A DNA stretch of 64,000 nucleotides from Escherichia phage phi92. Made by a program: the position numbers and the translations under genes. The notes beneath the pieces were generated by a model. The model made no database searches. It was not told where the DNA came from and worked only from the letters and a program-made list of their open reading frames with translations. The stretch lies in the sequence record NC_023693.1, one strand, 5' to 3'. Below are positions 50,196-64,000 of the stretch, piece by piece (the first letter of the stretch is position 1; every line of letters begins with the position of its first letter).

Positions 50196-51386
50196 ATGGC
50201 AGCACCAAAATCATGGGAACAATATAAAGAAGAGTGTCAACCAATAGCAGAGAGTAAGCAAATCCAAATCTTAGGATGGACGGGAGAATGGAAAGGGAAC
50301 AAGACTAAACTTAAGCTATCTTGCTCTGATCATGGAGAGTGGAACACCACGAACATTAATGATTTTAAGAATGGACGTGGTTGTCCGGCATGTACAAGTA
50401 ATAAGTCGTTAACATGGGAAACAGAATTGCCGATCTTAGAAGAGATAGCACAGAAGAAGGGGTATCAAGTGTTAGGGTACGTTGGAGAATGGAAAGGGGT
50501 TAATACAAAACTTGATTTGTTGTGTCATTGTGGGAATAGATGGCAAAGTACAATTATTAAGACATTTAAACGTGTAAATGGTTGTCCACAGTGTAGAATA
50601 GAGAAGGTAAAGCAAGCCAGTACGAAGTCAGATGATGAAAGGATCGCCTCTTTCCTTGCTAAGCGGGATTATCCAGAAGGAACTATCTTTAAACGATCTG
50701 ATCGGACTACCTTGCAAGGTCGTGCAGTTTATTGGTTTGTGTATTGCCCTATCTGTGCACAAGATGAAATAACGAAAGCTGGGTTATGTAGTGGATGGTT
50801 TGAAAGTACAGCAGGGGATTTGCAAAAAGGGACTGCCGCTTGTCGTTGTAGTAAGTCCCCTAAATACACAGACGATCAGAATACATTCCGTGCAATGAAG
50901 GTATGCGAGGATAACGGTTATCAGTTTGTTGGTTGGGTTGATAAGGTAGGAACACAGTCTAAGTTTAAATATCTGTGTCCAGAACACGGGGTACAAATTA
51001 TAACATTGGGTAGTATGGTTAGGGGTCATGGATGCCCTGAATGTGCTGGTAATAGTCAACAGCAATTATATATTAACATTGTTAAAGATAATGATATTAC
51101 CGTTGCTCTTAAGTTTGGCATAGCTAAAGATAGCGACAGGCGATTAAACAGTCAAAATAGCCGTAATCTGTTTTTTATGGAGCGTATTTGTTTATATGAT
51201 TTTAGTACAGTGAAACAATGTAAGGCTACTGAAAGAGCTATAAAGAAAAAATTAAAAACTGGTATTTTAACGGCAAGAGAGTTGAAAGACGGTTATACAG
51301 AAACAGTAAGTGTTTCTGATTTGGAAAATCTTCAAAAAATTATTACACAATATGGTGGCAAATTGGTATATAGTAAGGAGGTGTAA
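50196..51386 (+). CDS. zinc-ribbon repeat protein with C-terminal T5orf172 (GIY-YIG-like) domain
   Basis: Repeated units GW.GEWKG..TKL.L.C..HG.W...GCP.C; C-terminal LYINIVK...ALKFGIAKDSDRRLNSQN. Confidence 0.5.
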   Translation: MAAPKSWEQYKEECQPIAESKQIQILGWTGEWKGNKTKLKLSCSDHGEWNTTNINDFKNGRGCPACTSNKSLTWETELPILEEIAQKKGYQVLGYVGEWKGVNTKLDLLCHCGNRWQSTIIKTFKRVNGCPQCRIEKVKQASTKSDDERIASFLAKRDYPEGTIFKRSDRTTLQGRAVYWFVYCPICAQDEITKAGLCSGWFESTAGDLQKGTAACRCSKSPKYTDDQNTFRAMKVCEDNGYQFVGWVDKVGTQSKFKYLCPEHGVQIITLGSMVRGHGCPECAGNSQQQLYINIVKDNDITVALKFGIAKDSDRRLNSQNSRNLFFMERICLYDFSTVKQCKATERAIKKKLKTGILTARELKDGYTETVSVSDLENLQKIITQYGGKLVYSKEV

Positions 51387-51938
51387 ATGCGGATTACTGA
51401 TAAGTATGTGTTCTTCTTCTCGGCAAAAGATGAATTTAGCAACTGGTATCTATCATCTTTTATTGAACCTTTAGCACCCAAGTATAATAACTCTATTACA
51501 AGTTCTGTTGAATTTACTTGTGTGGAACAATATATGATGTGGAGAAAAGCATGTTTGTTTTATGATTACAATATTGCATCTTCTATTTTAATCGGAGATC
51601 TCAGATATACAGGAGAAAAAGAACAAGCATATTATAAGCGACTAGGTAGATTAGTTAAAGATTATGATGAAGACACCTGGACTTCTTTACGGGAGAAGAT
51701 TGTCAAACGTGGTTTGTATCTTAAATACACACAAAATGAAGATCTCAAAAATAAACTTATCGCTTACGCAGATAAGGAGTTCGTAGAGGCAAGCCCCTAT
51801 GATTCTATTTATGGTATCAAAATGGGGATGTGGGATCGGGACGTGGAAAATAAGGATTGTTGGAAAGGACAAAATCTTTTAGGAAAATGGCATACAGACC
51901 TTGCTGTTTATCTAAAAACACAATCTGATATTTCCTGA
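51387..51938 (+). CDS. NADAR (YbiA-like) domain protein
   Basis: FFFSAKDEFSNWYLSSF, EQYMMWRKA and EASPYDSIYGIKMG blocks match NADAR signature positions; RBS aaggagg. Confidence 0.5.
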   Translation: MRITDKYVFFFSAKDEFSNWYLSSFIEPLAPKYNNSITSSVEFTCVEQYMMWRKACLFYDYNIASSILIGDLRYTGEKEQAYYKRLGRLVKDYDEDTWTSLREKIVKRGLYLKYTQNEDLKNKLIAYADKEFVEASPYDSIYGIKMGMWDRDVENKDCWKGQNLLGKWHTDLAVYLKTQSDIS

Positions 51939-52154
51939 TATTTTGAAAATTTTTATTTTTATAAAAAGGGGTGTGGGTTTCATGTACGGAAATTCACCCT
52001 CTGCACAGTATACCCAGAGTAAGTATTATTCTATACTCTGTTAATAAAGTATTTAATTTGTTTGTTGGACTATGGTATCTGGTTTTTAAAAGACACATTA
52101 TCTCTTAACTACTATTTATAACAGAACAGTAAAATCATTTTTATAAAAAGGACA

Positions 52155-52355
52155 AAATTATTTAAAGTTTTTACTAGATTTTTGGCTACAAATTTTGAAA
52201 ATGAAAAGTTCAAGTTTGGTCAAAATTATTTAAAGTTTTTGTACGTATTTCTATCCAGATTTTGAAAATGAAAACTTCAATTTTTTAAAAATTCCCCAGT
52301 TTATTTAAAGTTTTTTTGCCTTTTTCCGTAGAAAAATCAAAAATGAAAAGTTCAA
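52155..52355. repeat. three tandem imperfect direct repeats (iterons, about 70-75 bp)
   Basis: Each unit contains TTATTTAAAGTTTTT ... TTTGAAAATGAAAA(G/C)TTCAA. Confidence 0.6.
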
Positions 52356-52378
52356 TTTCGTGTTTTTATGGGTGTGCG

Positions 52379-52500
52379 GATGATAATCATTCTCATTTGT
52401 AAATGAGAATCATTATCATTTAATTATGTAAGTGATAATCATTCTCACTAAGAGAATGAGAATCATTAGCAAATGAGAATTTTTCTCATTTAGAGAATAA
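52379..52500. promoter_or_regulatory. cluster of palindromic operator-like sites (Fur-box-like)
   Basis: GATAATCATTCTCATTTGTAAATGAGAATCATTATC near-perfect 36-bp palindrome, plus GATAATCATTCTCA...GAATGAGAATCATTAGC and AAATGAGAATTTTTCTCATTT. Confidence 0.45.
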
Positions 52501-52753
52501 CGCGCAGGGGTGGTGTTTGTCTCGCGCTCCCGTGTCCCCTCGCCATACAATAAGAATAGCATAACCAACAACAAAAGCAAGCGATTATTTTTATCTTTAC
52601 ATTTCTTTACAAATTTATTTTAGACGAGCTACCGGCGATCAACCTTCCAACCAGTAGTGCCCTGGTATGTTAGCCCCGCCTTTACGCCGTGGGGGTGGCG
52701 CTTCCTCTTCTGTATGTAAAACAGTATAAGCCCGATCCCTGGGCTTGTCAAGA

Positions 52754-53020
52754 TTATTTTTTGTTTTCTTGCCAGGATAGGACACCTAACCAAAAATACA
52801 TGTCGCCCCGCGCCCCTGGTGGGATCTTGCTTTCCCCGCCGCCACTGCAAGCCCATAGATAACCATTTGCGAACGTATCAAAATGATCTATCTCTTCCAC
52901 CTTATGATCGCCCAGGTTGAGAACGGTTTCAACCTTTAAGCCCGTTGCGCTTGCTACCTGGTGCACCGTGCCGCCTTGCCAGCCCAATGAGTGCATGAGG
53001 TGTGAAGTAGTATTTGTCAT
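52754..53020 (-). CDS. hypothetical ORF in GC-rich island (uncertain)
   Basis: 88 aa ORF with weak RBS; local GC content visibly higher than the surrounding phage DNA. Confidence 0.25.
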   Translation of the reverse strand: MTNTTSHLMHSLGWQGGTVHQVASATGLKVETVLNLGDHKVEEIDHFDTFANGYLWACSGGGESKIPPGARGDMYFWLGVLSWQENKK

Positions 53021-53131
53021 GGTATCGCCCTTTCTTTGATGTGCGCCCTGGTTGGCGCGGTAGAAAGATAATAGCCCTTTCCTTTATAGATAGCAAGCAA
53101 AAAAGAAATGAAAAAAGATTAAAAAAAGGGG

Positions 53132-53160
53132 TTGACGTTCCTCACCTGGTAGCGTATTAT
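53132..53160 (+). promoter_or_regulatory. sigma70-like promoter
   Basis: TTGACG, 17-bp spacer, TATTAT. Confidence 0.4.
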
Positions 53161-53287
53161 TCATCTTGTCGAGGGGGGCGAGGCACAACGACAATAAACA
53201 AAAGGAGGGCGCAATGCAGGACGGGCAAAGGTGAGGATCTCCACAATCCACCGTCACAATAACATTACTTATAAAAGGTTGATAACG

Positions 53288-53392
53288 ATGATCAAGAAAG
53301 AAAACAGCTTGACGGTTGGAACGATTAACGCTATTTTGTTAGCCGTTCCAGTGTGGATCACTGTAGCAATTGTTGTTTCAATCATTCTATAA
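53288..53392 (+). CDS. small membrane peptide (34 aa)
   Basis: MIKKENSLTVGTINAILLAVPVWITVAIVVSIIL; below track size cut-off. Confidence 0.35.
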   Translation: MIKKENSLTVGTINAILLAVPVWITVAIVVSIIL

Positions 53393-53402
53393 GGCGTACA
53401 CT

Positions 53403-53684
53403 ATGAGCAAGGTAATTAATCATAAAGAGTTAAGCCCTACCCTTTCAATGAGTGAATGTACCGATGGTTTTTGGCTGTATGATGATACGCGCGGCATGAA
53501 TTTAGCCATGCGTGAAAAAACAGAAGAGGCGGCGTATATTAAAGCCCTGGAATACTACCAACGACGACTACAGGAAGTAGAAAGTAATTATAAAAGCCTG
53601 AAATCAAAGGTTGATCATTTTGTCGGTCAAGTAGTGGAAGAGGAAGAAGATCACTATTGCGAACGGTGCGGATCATATAGCTGA
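53403..53684 (+). CDS. hypothetical early protein
   Basis: Start set to ATG (MSKVINHK); track ORF starts upstream in the same frame. Confidence 0.4.
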   Translation: MSKVINHKELSPTLSMSECTDGFWLYDDTRGMNLAMREKTEEAAYIKALEYYQRRLQEVESNYKSLKSKVDHFVGQVVEEEEDHYCERCGSYS

Positions 53685-62589: not shown

Positions 62590-62803
62590 ACCTAAATAAA
62601 GATGATAGCTTTTACCTATCAAAAACGTTCACCGAAAAAAGTGAATAGATCGCGGTATCGAGCTAATCAAGGAGCAGATGAACAACCATACCATGAAGAT
62701 CATAAGGCGCTTACAACGTGTTTTAGACCGCTTATTTTTAATTTCTCAATGTAACTATCGGGCAAAAACAGCCTTTTTCTTGTCTTTCCTCTTAAATGAT
62801 AAT

Positions 62804-63948
62804 CATTCTTATTTATAGCTGATTATTTATGCAATAAACTGCATAATGCAATAATGATAATCATTCTTAACTTAAGACCATCTAACCTATAAAATAATAA
62901 GCTATCTAACTAAATTAAACCTAATTATCTCACTTTTATTTATAACTTACTGTTATTATCTCATTGATAACATTGTATTAAACAACAATAACTAATATAA
63001 ATCATTACTAAGCTAACTATAATCTATCTAACCCTTAAAACTACAATTATAATCTATCAAATTGTTGCACAAAGTAACTATTAAATTGTTAGTAACATTA
63101 CTAAATAATTTACATCCTACTTATTTATGATCTAATCTTTACCTCCCTATCTATTACCTAAATAACCATTTCATGTAGTAATCATTTCATACAATAACTA
63201 TAACAAGAAATATAATTCGCAAGCGTATCATTAGCAGCCTATGCCGGACACATAGGCGGCTAATAATAACGCAACTACACACCCCACATAATAACCATCA
63301 CCGATAGTTATTATTTGTGCTTATGTAGCTTGCAACAATTGCAAGCGCAACAATATACGAGAGTATATTGTATTCCCTTACATTGTTGCGGTGCGTTATT
63401 ATTAGCTAATGTTTAGAACATTGGCTATAATATAAGCTAAATAATAAGCTATGCAATAATAAACATGGTGAATAATGACATTGATGATCATAATGCGCCA
63501 CCCTCCAGGGGGCGCTATGTGTACACAAAGAAATCTTTCTTGTCAAGAAAAATATCATCACTATTGCGCAAAATTATTTACATCTGAATAGATGATTTTT
63601 CATACTATTGCCCCCATAATTATCTTTATTTGTTACCCCTAAATATCCTATTTGTTGAGCCTACTTTCTTAAAAGCGCAATAAATCAGAATTATCTTGAT
63701 TTTTAGTCGGTTTTATAGTATAGAAAATATGTAAATGATAATCATTATCAGCTATCTTCCACGGGTGGCACTATTTCACGCCAGATCATTTCATTTGACA
63801 AGGTGTATATAGATGTTTAGACTTGCCAAGCCATTGATTTACTTAGAATTTATCTGTTTTGTTGTGAGTAGTACCTTTCTTGCTCAGAAAATAATCAAAA
63901 GTCTTATAAGTCATTGAATGATAATGCAAATGATAATTATTCTCATTG
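62804..63948. promoter_or_regulatory. non-coding AT-rich region with four Fur-box-like sites and short repeats
   Basis: AAATGATAATCATTCTTA at 62804 and 62852, AAATGATAATCATTATC at 63733, AATGATAATGCAAATGATAATTATTCTCATTG at 63916; recurring (A)TCTATCTAAC motifs; no ORF of 60 aa or more. Confidence 0.4.
63259..63406. repeat. nested inverted-repeat structure
   Basis: Exact 14-bp inverted repeat GCTAATAATAACGC / GCGTTATTATTAGC enclosing palindrome GCTTGCAA-CAA-TTGCAAGC and inverted repeat CGCAACAAT...ATTGTTGCG. Confidence 0.5.
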
Positions 63949-64000
63949 ATATTTGAGGGGGACGGTCGGCAGAAATCGGGGGGCGCTGAAAATCGCGTTA

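What the first reader, a model, noticed from the sequence alone, without database searches (positions are those of the whole stretch)
52155..52355. Three tandem 70-75 bp iterons in the large intergenic region
Units beginning at about 52156, 52222 and 52300 share TTATTTAAAGTTTTT and TTTGAAAATGAAAA(G/C)TTCAA cores with variable spacers. Tandem AT-rich iterons next to palindromic protein-binding sites are typical of replication origins or packaging signals. Their position between the middle-gene and early-gene blocks fits an origin.
Basis: inference. Interest (0 to 1): 0.5.

Follow-up and report, generated by a model that had tools for sequence, protein, structure and literature searches.

The report
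Conserved triple repeat in phage control region
Three tandem AT-rich repeats in a phi92-like E. coli phage are real and are conserved in number and spacing across two phage subfamilies, so they are probably a protein-binding array such as a replication origin, though no experiment has tested this.

Summary
Three units start at 52155, 52222 and 52297 (spacing 67 and 75 bp). Each has an exact 15-mer (TTATTTAAAGTTTTT), a variable 24-25 bp spacer and an exact 16-mer (AAAATGAAAASTTCAA). These motifs occur nowhere else in the 64 kb window.

The window is a Justusliebigvirus (phi92-like). Within the genus all six variable positions in the array fall outside the two cores. Related genera, and Vequintavirinae with a quite different unit sequence, also carry three units, spanning 141-143 bp from first to third.

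The array is one part of a roughly 1 kb non-coding module found in 356 phage records. Its order is: array, Fur-box-like palindromes, a GC-rich conserved element, then a conserved minus-strand sigma-70 promoter firing back towards the array. The module lies about 11.7 kb (8%) from the physical genome end, at the inner edge of the early-gene block. Its palindromes match the phage T5 injection-stop region.

The origin reading is plausible: a promoter feeding an untranslated transcript into easily melted repeats, as in T7. It is unproven, and the units are not classical iterons. The main rivals are a T5-like DNA-entry checkpoint and a regulatory boundary array. Packaging is unlikely. I found no description of the module in the searched literature.

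The parts
52155..52217 (.). Repeat unit 1: core A TTATTTAAAGTTTTT (52158-52172), 25-nt spacer, core B AAAATGAAAAGTTCAA (52198-52213)
   Evidence: Within-genus variable positions 52175, 52184 and 52186 all lie in the spacer.
52222..52284 (.). Repeat unit 2: core A at 52226-52240, 24-nt spacer, core B AAAATGAAAACTTCAA at 52265-52280
   Evidence: Variable positions 52244 and 52253 lie in the spacer and 52286 lies between units.
52297..52359 (.). Repeat unit 3: core A at 52301-52315, 24-nt spacer, core B AAAATGAAAAGTTCAA at 52340-52355
   Evidence: No variable position among six Justusliebigvirus sequences.
51925..51943 (.). Left edge of the module: two copies of (T)GATATTT, 10 bp apart, directly after the stop codon of the NADAR gene. 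Steph (Stephanstirmvirinae) and Veq (Vequintavirinae) relatives have 2-3 copies at the same place.
   Evidence: Relatives seen.
52381..52488 (.). Cluster of five Fur-box-like palindromes (TGAKAATNATTMTCA, at least 14 of 15 matching) starting at 52381, 52404, 52433, 52457 and 52474
   Evidence: expectation 0.1 per 64 kb. Matches the published Fur consensus AATGAgAATcATTctCATT and the iron box GATAATGAGAATCATTATT. Similar to the T5 injection-stop region.
52497..52715 (-). GC-rich conserved non-coding element. It includes CTTTACAnnnnCTTTACAA (about 52590-52609) and the 26-nt stretch GTTAGCCCCGCCTTTACGCCGTGGGG (52669-52694), which is invariant across two subfamilies. It is a candidate untranslated transcript of the promoter at 52751..52723.
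   Evidence: one compensatory G-C/A-U pair, 7 versus 4 sequences; the plus strand folds about as well but without covariation; no Rfam family.
52723..52751 (-). Conserved sigma-70-type promoter TTGACA-17-TATACT with an A/T-rich upstream stretch, pointing towards the palindromes and the repeats
   Evidence: 11 of 12 matches. Hexamers are kept and spacer sequences differ in 11 representatives and in phage V5. A homing-endonuclease gene sits downstream of it in L022.
52754..53020 (-). Small minus-strand gene (88 aa, PHROG 19316, function unknown) between the module and the early promoter
   Evidence: Annotated in relatives.
53132..53160 (+). Sigma-70-type promoter TTGACG-17-TATTAT at the start of the roughly 9.4 kb block of small early genes that runs towards the genome end
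   Evidence: Conserved in relatives.
63733..64000 (.). Start of the 342-bp direct terminal repeat, mapped from BME3. It puts the physical right end at about window position 64072.

Best explanation
The three units are a cis-acting array of binding sites for a lineage-specific, probably phage-encoded, DNA-binding protein. The array is one fixed-geometry component of a conserved non-coding module.

The most likely role is the core of a transcription-activated replication origin. Host RNA polymerase would start at the conserved minus-strand promoter (52751..52723). It would make an untranslated, G-rich transcript that runs through the Fur-box-like palindromes into the easily melted repeat region. 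There the bound protein and the transcript would open the duplex, so that the phage's T7-like primase-helicase and PolA-type polymerase can start.

Shown here:
- the repeats themselves;
- selective conservation of their two cores;
- the conserved number of units and the 141-143 bp span;
- the conserved promoter and its orientation;
- the low duplex stability of the region.

Inferred, not shown:
- that a protein binds the cores;
- that the promoter's transcript reaches the array;
- that replication starts here.
For: 1. Selection acts on the cores. Six Justusliebigvirus sequences have only 6 variable positions in 52155-52360, all in spacers or between units. The 194 bp of non-coding DNA just upstream has 29.
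2. Number and geometry are conserved while sequence turns over. There are three units spanning 141-143 bp in 17 of 20 loci across Stephanstirmvirinae and Vequintavirinae. The Vequintavirinae unit (GGGTTCTCGATCG...CGTATTT...GAAAAAATTTTT) is unrelated in its first core. Neighbouring elements (Fur-like palindromes, GC-rich element) keep their sequence across subfamilies. This pattern fits a co-evolving phage protein and site pair.
3. The motif is absent from the rest of the window, so it is not a general promoter. No sigma-70 promoter is conserved inside the units (and direct reading). Neither strand has excess RNA structure (z = +0.58 and +1.11). It therefore acts as DNA.
4. A strong sigma-70 promoter with conserved hexamers and variable spacers points at the array in all 11 representatives and in V5. 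The RNA is non-coding in most phages.
5. 52017-52216 is the second least stable 200-bp stretch of the 64 kb window.
6. The phage group has a T7-type replisome: PolA and a gp4-like primase-helicase (rV5 paper; Mydo annotation).
7. From established knowledge: the T7 primary origin is promoters followed by an AT-rich stretch at the early/middle gene border. T4 oriF/oriG and lactococcal phage c2 also use a promoter plus an untranslated transcript.
Against: - Units are about 56 bp and bipartite with a 67/75 bp period, unlike 17-22 bp iterons.
- The promoter is 370-560 bp from the array, with five Fur-like sites between them.
- No initiator family is recognisable in neighbouring genes.
- There are no DnaA or IHF sites.
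- GC skew of the plus strand falls rather than rises across the site, and the cumulative minimum is at 47-48 kb, where gene orientation flips.
- An even less stable region lies near the terminus, at 62857-63056.
- The palindromes shared with T5 lie, in T5, in a region thought not to be an origin.
- No experimental replication data exist for any of these phages.
Confidence: 0.35

Rival explanations
1. The array is part of a DNA-entry checkpoint equivalent to the phage T5 injection stop signal. The right-terminal 8% of the genome, holding the early genes, would enter first. Transfer would pause at the module, and the repeats, together with the Fur-like palindromes, would be the cis site where the pause is set or released.
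For: - The array lies about 11.7 kb from the mapped physical end of a genome of about 147 kb, which is 8%. The T5 first-step-transfer DNA is 7.9%.
- The palindrome cluster next to the array is the only part of the query that matches other phage families, and in T5 it falls inside the annotated injection stop signal.
- The order of element types is the same as in T5 Repeat Region 3, reading from the terminus: early genes, palindromes, family-specific direct repeats (nine DRD copies in T5), then TTATCTCAA motifs. These motifs appear in T5, GAP31, Mydo and anhysbys but not as an exact motif in this window.
- Fur-like boxes bracket the early block in this window, in Mydo and in T5.
- The conserved minus-strand promoter points towards DNA that would not yet have entered.
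- Vequintavirinae share the daunorubicin sensitivity of T5-like phages; this is circumstantial.
Against: - No A1, A2 or dmp homologues by tblastn.
- No DnaA boxes, which are the centre of Davison's model.
- The terminal repeat is 342 bp, not about 10 kb.
- Similarity to T5 is limited to the palindromes, which a shared host factor could explain.
- Which end enters first is unknown.
- The T5 stop signal has never been mapped to a particular repeat.
- No report of two-step transfer in these myoviruses turned up in the searched literature.
Confidence: 0.17
2. The array is a regulatory or boundary element: operator-like sites for a phage regulator, possibly acting with host nucleoid proteins. It would insulate the upstream plus-strand operon from the early block, stop read-through of the minus-strand transcript, or time the early-to-middle switch. 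It would have no role in replication or DNA entry.
For: - The array separates two co-directional gene blocks that have their own promoters.
- It faces an oncoming transcript from the conserved minus-strand promoter.
- The module is densely packed with several different short repeats: GATATTT, Fur-like boxes with a 29-bp period, and CTTTACA direct repeats.
- The V5 units contain TCGATAAATT, which I recall as the H-NS high-affinity motif. That is memory, not a test.
- From established knowledge, phi29 p4/p6 is a precedent for a repeat-based switch region between early and late promoters.
Against: - The array is 370-1000 bp from the nearest convincing promoters, which is far for operators.
- A conserved three-unit, 142-bp geometry is not needed for a simple roadblock.
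- No regulator gene has been identified.
Confidence: 0.25
3. The array is a packaging recognition (pac/cosB-like) site for the small terminase subunit.
For: - Three repeated protein-binding elements recall lambda cosB (R3, R2, R1); this is from established knowledge.
- A Fur-like palindrome also sits exactly at the start of the terminal repeat at 63733-63750, so similar sequences lie at a real terminus.
Against: - The mapped terminal repeat is 11.7 kb away.
- The three-unit motif is absent from the terminal region.
- Known DTR phages keep packaging signals within a few hundred bp of the cut.
Confidence: 0.04

Closest known systems
Phage T7 primary origin of replication (promoters phi1.1A/B followed by an AT-rich region, at the border of early and middle genes)
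   Same: - A promoter directs an untranslated or leader transcript into an easily melted AT-rich stretch.
- It lies near the leading 8-15% of a terminally redundant linear genome, at the edge of the early block.
- The replisome is of the T7 type (PolA plus a gp4-like primase-helicase).
   Different: - The promoter is a host sigma-70 type and lies 370-560 bp away, not adjacent.
- The AT-rich part is organised as three long bipartite repeats, which T7 lacks.
- Fur-like palindromes lie between promoter and repeats.
- Nothing has been shown experimentally.
Iterons of theta-type plasmid and phage origins (for example lambda ori, P1 oriR, pSC101)
   Same: - Several direct repeats with conserved cores.
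- Lineage-specific sequence, suggesting a cognate protein.
- Next to AT-rich DNA, inside a non-coding control region.
   Different: - The unit is about 56 bp and bipartite, with a 67/75 bp period rather than 17-22 bp.
- There are no DnaA boxes.
- No initiator gene is recognisable nearby.
Phage T5 Repeat Region 3 / injection stop signal
   Same: - About 8% from a genome end, at the inner border of the host-takeover genes.
- A long non-coding stretch packed with nested repeats.
- The same AATGAKAATNATTMTCATT palindromes.
- Family-specific direct repeats on the distal side of the palindromes.
   Different: - No DnaA boxes.
- No long terminal repeat.
- No A1 or A2 genes.
- The T5 direct repeats are nine copies of a 15-mer, not three 56-bp units.
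- The T5 region lacks the GC-rich element. I did not examine T5 for an equivalent of the minus-strand promoter.
Lambda cosB (three gpNu1-binding R elements plus an IHF site)
   Same: Three repeated protein-binding elements next to a host-factor site.
   Different: It lies 11.7 kb from the genome terminus, and the units are far longer.

Membership tests
Iterons (initiator-binding direct repeats of theta-type origins) | Three or more direct repeats with a conserved sequence | tested here: met
   Three units with exact 15-mer and 16-mer cores.
Iterons (initiator-binding direct repeats of theta-type origins) | Unit length about 17-22 bp, usually phased at about two helical turns | tested here: not met
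   Bipartite units of about 56 bp with periods of 67 and 75 bp.
Iterons (initiator-binding direct repeats of theta-type origins) | Cognate initiator (Rep) gene adjacent or overlapping | tested here: inconclusive
   Pfam and PHROG scans of neighbouring genes give NADAR, a CapR/T5orf172 endonuclease, a generic AAA ATPase and unknowns, with no Rep or initiator family. An unrecognised initiator cannot be excluded.
Iterons (initiator-binding direct repeats of theta-type origins) | Adjacent AT-rich unwinding element and host DnaA/IHF sites | tested here: inconclusive
   The AT-rich, low-stability requirement is met. There are no DnaA boxes in 51900-53300. The only IHF consensus match in that interval is at 53272, about 900 bp beyond the array.
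Iterons (initiator-binding direct repeats of theta-type origins) | Supports initiation of replication | not testable with these tools
   Needs marker-frequency analysis, 2D gels or a plasmid origin assay.
T7-type transcription-dependent origin | Promoter directing transcription into an AT-rich region | tested here: inconclusive
   A conserved sigma-70 promoter points at the array, but it is 370-560 bp away. Whether the transcript reaches the array is unknown.
T7-type transcription-dependent origin | T7-like replisome (PolA, gp4-type primase-helicase) | not tested
   Taken from the rV5 paper and the Mydo annotation. I did not check it in this window.
T5 injection stop signal (Repeat Region 3) | Located about 8% from the first-entering end, at the inner border of the pre-early genes | tested here: inconclusive
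   The distance is met: 11.7 kb of about 147 kb. Which end enters first is unknown.
T5 injection stop signal (Repeat Region 3) | Cluster of PalE-J type palindromes | tested here: met
   BLAST similarity to the annotated T5 injection stop signal. The motif scan finds the same sites.
T5 injection stop signal (Repeat Region 3) | Paired DnaA boxes (IRD'spacerIRC') | tested here: not met
   No TTWTNCACA, and nothing within 1 mismatch of TTATCCACA, in 51900-53300.
T5 injection stop signal (Repeat Region 3) | Lies within or at the edge of a terminal repeat of about 10 kb | tested here: not met
   The terminal repeat is 342 bp and lies 11.7 kb away.
T5 injection stop signal (Repeat Region 3) | A1 and A2 proteins needed for second-step transfer | tested here: not met
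   tblastn of all 16 T5 left-terminal-repeat proteins against the window and 50 kb of Mydo gives nothing below E = 0.01. Remote homologues are not excluded.
T5 injection stop signal (Repeat Region 3) | Two-step DNA transfer | not testable with these tools
   Needs shearing or time-resolved entry experiments.
Terminase recognition site (cosB/pac) | Within a few hundred bp of the packaging cut or terminus | tested here: not met
   11.7 kb from the mapped terminal repeat.
Fur box (for the neighbouring palindromes, not the repeats) | Match to the 7-1-7 / 19-bp Fur consensus | tested here: met
   Five sites with at least 14 of 15 matches to TGAKAATNATTMTCA at 52381-52488, against an expectation of 0.1 per 64 kb. 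Published consensus AATGAgAATcATTctCATT and iron box GATAATGAGAATCATTATT. Binding by E. coli Fur was not tested.

The most novel reading that the evidence does not exclude
The three-unit array and the Fur-box-like palindromes could together form a DNA-transfer checkpoint equivalent to the T5 injection stop signal. On this reading rV5-like and phi92-like myoviruses deliver their genome in two steps: first the right-terminal 8%, carrying the early genes, then the rest. Host Fur, whose candidate sites bracket the first-entering segment in T5, Mydo and this phage, would be the shared trans-acting factor. The lineage-specific repeats would bind the phage protein that releases the pause.
Probability: 0.1. 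Interest if true: 0.85.

Novelty: new variant of a known kind. Interest (0 to 1): 0.5.

Why it matters
- No origin of replication, and no cis-acting control site of any kind, has been defined for the rV5/phi92/phAPEC8 group. These are broad-host-range myoviruses used in phage therapy collections. The rV5 paper marks only a 'non-coding' box and reports that skew analysis failed to find an origin.
- This work delimits a roughly 1 kb module present in 356 phage records, with ordered, separately testable parts. Its three-unit, 142-bp geometry has survived complete turnover of the unit sequence.
- The module gives the long-unsolved T5 injection-stop region an outgroup for the first time. The two regions share the Fur-box-like palindromes but not the DnaA boxes. 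That bears directly on the DnaA-based model for T5 and suggests Fur as a candidate factor. Davison's T5 preprint does not mention Fur, and a literature search for Fur boxes in virulent phages returned nothing relevant.

Tried and rejected
- **General phage promoter.** Rejected. The motifs occur only here in 64 kb, and no conserved -35/-10 pair fits either strand (and direct reading).
- **Structured RNA or small RNA genes.** Rejected. Both strands fold no better than shuffles, and there is no Rfam hit in 51500-53600 and no tRNA.
- **Tiny ORFs starting at the ATG in core B.** The peptides would be 6-19 aa, with differing sequence and no ribosome-binding site. Dismissed from the sequence alone.
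- **Host or plasmid origin of the module.** No relevant match in plasmids (only chance 26-nt hits in Bacillus) and none in 5,426 E. coli genomes. The GC-rich anchor occurs in one 4-kb metagenome-assembled contig only.
- **AAA ATPase 2 kb upstream as initiator.** Only generic AAA similarity, and it is not adjacent to the module in Vequintavirinae.
- **GC skew as origin evidence.** The turning point follows gene orientation at 47-48 kb.
- **Homology of early proteins to T5 A1, A2 or dmp.** None found.
- **Strand of the GC-rich element.** Only weakly resolved. One compensatory pair and the promoter favour the minus strand, but the plus strand gives a similar energy.
- **Literature searches for a description of this module or for transcriptomes of these phages.** Nothing found. 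The phi92 genome paper is not held in the library.

Full report
**What the window is.** The 700 bp around the finding are 97-99% identical to Justusliebigvirus phages (phi92-like, subfamily Stephanstirmvirinae) such as BME3, JohannJBalmer and muut. In those records the repeats are unannotated. The only repeat_region features, in muut and alia, cover the palindromes next door.

**The observation.** Three units are present. TRF finds a period of 67 with score 180. The repeat finder gives three 63-nt copies at 52155, 52222 and 52297, spaced 67 and 75 bp apart. Each unit has three parts:
- an exact 15-mer, TTATTTAAAGTTTTT (52158, 52226, 52301);
- a spacer of 24-25 nt with variable sequence;
- an exact 16-mer, AAAATGAAAA(G/C)TTCAA (52198, 52265, 52340).

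Neither core occurs elsewhere in the 64 kb, apart from one 2-mismatch match to the first core. The period is 67/75 rather than 70-75, and unit 3 lacks the TTTG start of the second core.

**Is it under selection?** Six Justusliebigvirus sequences were aligned. Only six positions vary in 52155-52360: 52175, 52184, 52186, 52244, 52253 and 52286. All lie in spacers or between units. The 194 bp of non-coding DNA just upstream has 29 variable positions. The first core (TTATTTAAA) and the general form of the second core persist in Phapecoctavirus (L004/L005) and in a Klebsiella member of the subfamily (L003), again as three units.

**A conserved three-unit geometry with sequence turnover.** The nearby 26-nt invariant sequence GTTAGCCCCGCCTTTWCGCCGTGGGG served as an anchor to collect 13 more loci from IMG/VR. 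Vequintavirinae-like phages (GAP31, Mydo and relatives) carry three tandem units at the same place. Their sequence is different: GGGTTCTCGATCG..TTTTC..AAATCGTATTT..GAAAAAATTTTT.
- The distance from the first to the third unit is 141-143 bp in 17 of 20 loci. It is 67+75 in Stephanstirmvirinae and 74-78+63-67 in Vequintavirinae.
- Phage V5 itself has a more degenerate three-unit array.
- The FBKp34 lineage has yet another repeat sequence.
- The flanking Fur-like palindromes and the GC-rich element, by contrast, keep their sequence across both subfamilies.

The simplest reading is that the repeats bind a lineage-specific, co-evolving protein, probably phage-encoded, while the invariant neighbours are read by something shared. 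This is inference.

**The module around the array.** From left to right in the window:
- 2-3 copies of GATATTT directly after the last upstream gene (51925-51943);
- an AT-rich stretch;
- the three units (52155-52359);
- five Fur-box-like palindromes (52381-52488);
- a GC-rich conserved non-coding element (52497-52715);
- a minus-strand sigma-70 promoter, TTGACA-17-TATACT (52751..52723; 11 of 12 matches);
- a small minus-strand gene of unknown function (52754..53020; PHROG 19316);
- the plus-strand promoter TTGACG-17-TATTAT (53132-53160), which opens a 9.4 kb run of small early-type ORFs.

The minus-strand promoter keeps its hexamers and its A/T-rich upstream stretch in all 11 representatives, while the spacer sequence changes. 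It is also present in V5. In one Mydovirus-like contig a homing-endonuclease gene has inserted just downstream of it, in the same orientation. The module is present in 356 phage records. It is absent from plasmids and E. coli genomes and essentially absent from bacterial genomes.

**Position in the genome.** BME3 (99% identical here) was reported to have 342-bp direct terminal repeats. Its annotated DTR maps to window 63733-64000 and would run about 72 bp past the window end. The array is therefore about 11.7 kb, or 8% of about 147 kb, from the physical right end, at the inner edge of the early block. Mydo has the same layout: module, then 9 kb of small plus-strand genes, a bidirectional terminator, then a poorly coding stretch.

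**What the array is not.**
- It is not a promoter family. The motifs are unique to this locus, and there is no conserved -35/-10 pair.
- It is not a structured RNA (z = +0.58 and +1.11). There are no Rfam or tRNA hits.
- It is not near the packaging cut.
- It contains no DnaA or IHF sites.

**Best explanation.** I favour a protein-binding array that forms the core of a transcription-activated origin, at confidence 0.35.
- For: a conserved host-type promoter sends a non-coding transcript towards AT-rich repeats, the second least stable 200 bp in the window. The site lies at the border of the early genes near one genome end. The phage group has a T7-type replisome. From established knowledge, T7 (promoters plus an AT-rich region at the class I/II border), T4 oriF/oriG and lactococcal phage c2 are precedents.
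- Against: the units are unlike classical iterons. The promoter is 370-560 bp away with Fur-like sites in between. No initiator is recognisable. GC skew gives no support. An even less stable stretch lies near the terminus. No replication data exist, and the rV5 authors could not locate an origin.

**The T5 connection.** The palindromes beside the array are the only part of the query with similarity outside the two subfamilies. In T5 they fall inside the annotated injection stop signal.
- One Phapecoctavirus copy shares 29 of 31 nt with a T5 copy, read directly.
- A scan for TGAKAATNATTMTCA (at least 14 of 15) finds nine sites in the window, against an expectation of 0.1. All nine lie either in the module or in the terminal non-coding region (62797, 62855, 63736, 63931).
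- The same bracketing of the early block is seen in Mydo and in T5, where sites lie at 233, 9658 and 9693.
- The motif equals the published Xanthomonas Fur consensus AATGAgAATcATTctCATT and resembles the iron box GATAATGAGAATCATTATT. Davison's analysis of the T5 region does not mention Fur.

Location (8% versus 7.9%), the order of element types and these palindromes all argue for a functional parallel with T5 Repeat Region 3. The absence of DnaA boxes, of A1/A2/dmp homologues and of a long terminal repeat argue against membership. I rate a T5-like entry checkpoint at 0.17, a purely regulatory or boundary role at 0.25, and packaging at 0.04.

**Novelty.** The searched literature contains no description of the array or of the module. 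The rV5 paper shows only a 'non-coding' box. I file the array as a new variant of a known kind, namely repeat arrays in phage control or origin regions. It stands out for long bipartite units and for a three-unit, 142-bp geometry conserved across complete sequence turnover.

Noticed in passing
window 52381-52488, 62797-62869, 63736-63750, 63931-63945; L025 (Mydo) 27580, 37397, 38100, 38248; L011 (T5) 233, 9658, 9693: Fur-box-like palindromes (TGAKAATNATTMTCA, at least 14 of 15). All nine in the window lie in the module or in the terminal non-coding region, so they bracket the early-gene block. The same bracketing appears in Mydo and in T5, where the sites are the PalE-J palindromes of the injection stop region. 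One site sits exactly at the start of the 342-bp terminal repeat. In several lineages the boxes are spaced 29 bp apart. Davison's T5 preprint does not mention Fur.
   Followed up: partly
window 52497-52715 (minus strand), promoter 52751..52723: A GC-rich non-coding element downstream of a conserved sigma-70 promoter. It includes a 26-nt stretch invariant across two subfamilies and a hairpin with one compensatory pair (G-C in 7 sequences, A-U in 4, in both subfamilies). No Rfam family matches. It may be an undescribed early phage RNA, but the strand is only weakly resolved.
   Followed up: partly
L022 6420-7013 (minus strand), a Mydovirus-like IMG/VR contig: An HNH-type homing-endonuclease gene (197 aa) is inserted inside the GC-rich conserved element at the CCGGCGAT site, downstream of the conserved minus-strand promoter. 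It splits the element in two, while the three repeats and the palindromes are retained.
   Followed up: partly
window about 52590-52609; same position in L003, L004, L007, L008, L012-L019: A direct repeat CTTTACAnnnnCTTTACAA with an 11-bp period is conserved in every lineage. From memory it resembles direct-repeat sites of OmpR/PhoB-type response regulators. This was not tested.
   Followed up: no
window 51925-51943; L003 about 1270-1300; L004 about 1155-1175; L007 about 980-1015; L008 about 975-1010; L034 about 885-915: Two or three copies of GATATTT, 10-12 bp apart, lie directly after the stop codon of the gene upstream of the module. They are conserved in both subfamilies.
   Followed up: no
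L006 (T5) 1060-1100; L007 about 1121; L008 about 1098, 1187, 1209; L004 about 1344, 1368: The motif TTATCTCAA(A) occurs 1-3 times on the distal side of the direct-repeat arrays in T5, GAP31, Mydo and anhysbys, in the same relative position. It was not found as an exact motif in the window, where the nearest is TTATCTAAA at 51908.
   Followed up: no
window 62600-64000 and L010 (BME3 record 145300-147371): There is a non-coding stretch of about 1.4 kb before the genome end, and it contains the least stable DNA of the window (62857-63056). In the BME3 record a segment of roughly 0.8 kb (window 63242-64000 and beyond) appears twice in tandem, and the annotated 'DTR-L' is not at the record end. The exact terminal structure deserves rechecking against raw reads.
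   Followed up: partly
window 50196-51386 (plus strand): The gene two positions upstream of the module encodes a protein with four CapR-homology domains plus a T5orf172 domain (PHROG 681, 'endonuclease'). It is likely a homing-type endonuclease.
   Followed up: no
L002 4213-4323 (JohannJBalmer bas62_0107), roughly window 52112-52222, minus strand: A 36-aa CDS annotated in one relative overlaps repeat unit 1. The muut record does not annotate it. It is probably a spurious call in non-coding DNA.
   Followed up: no
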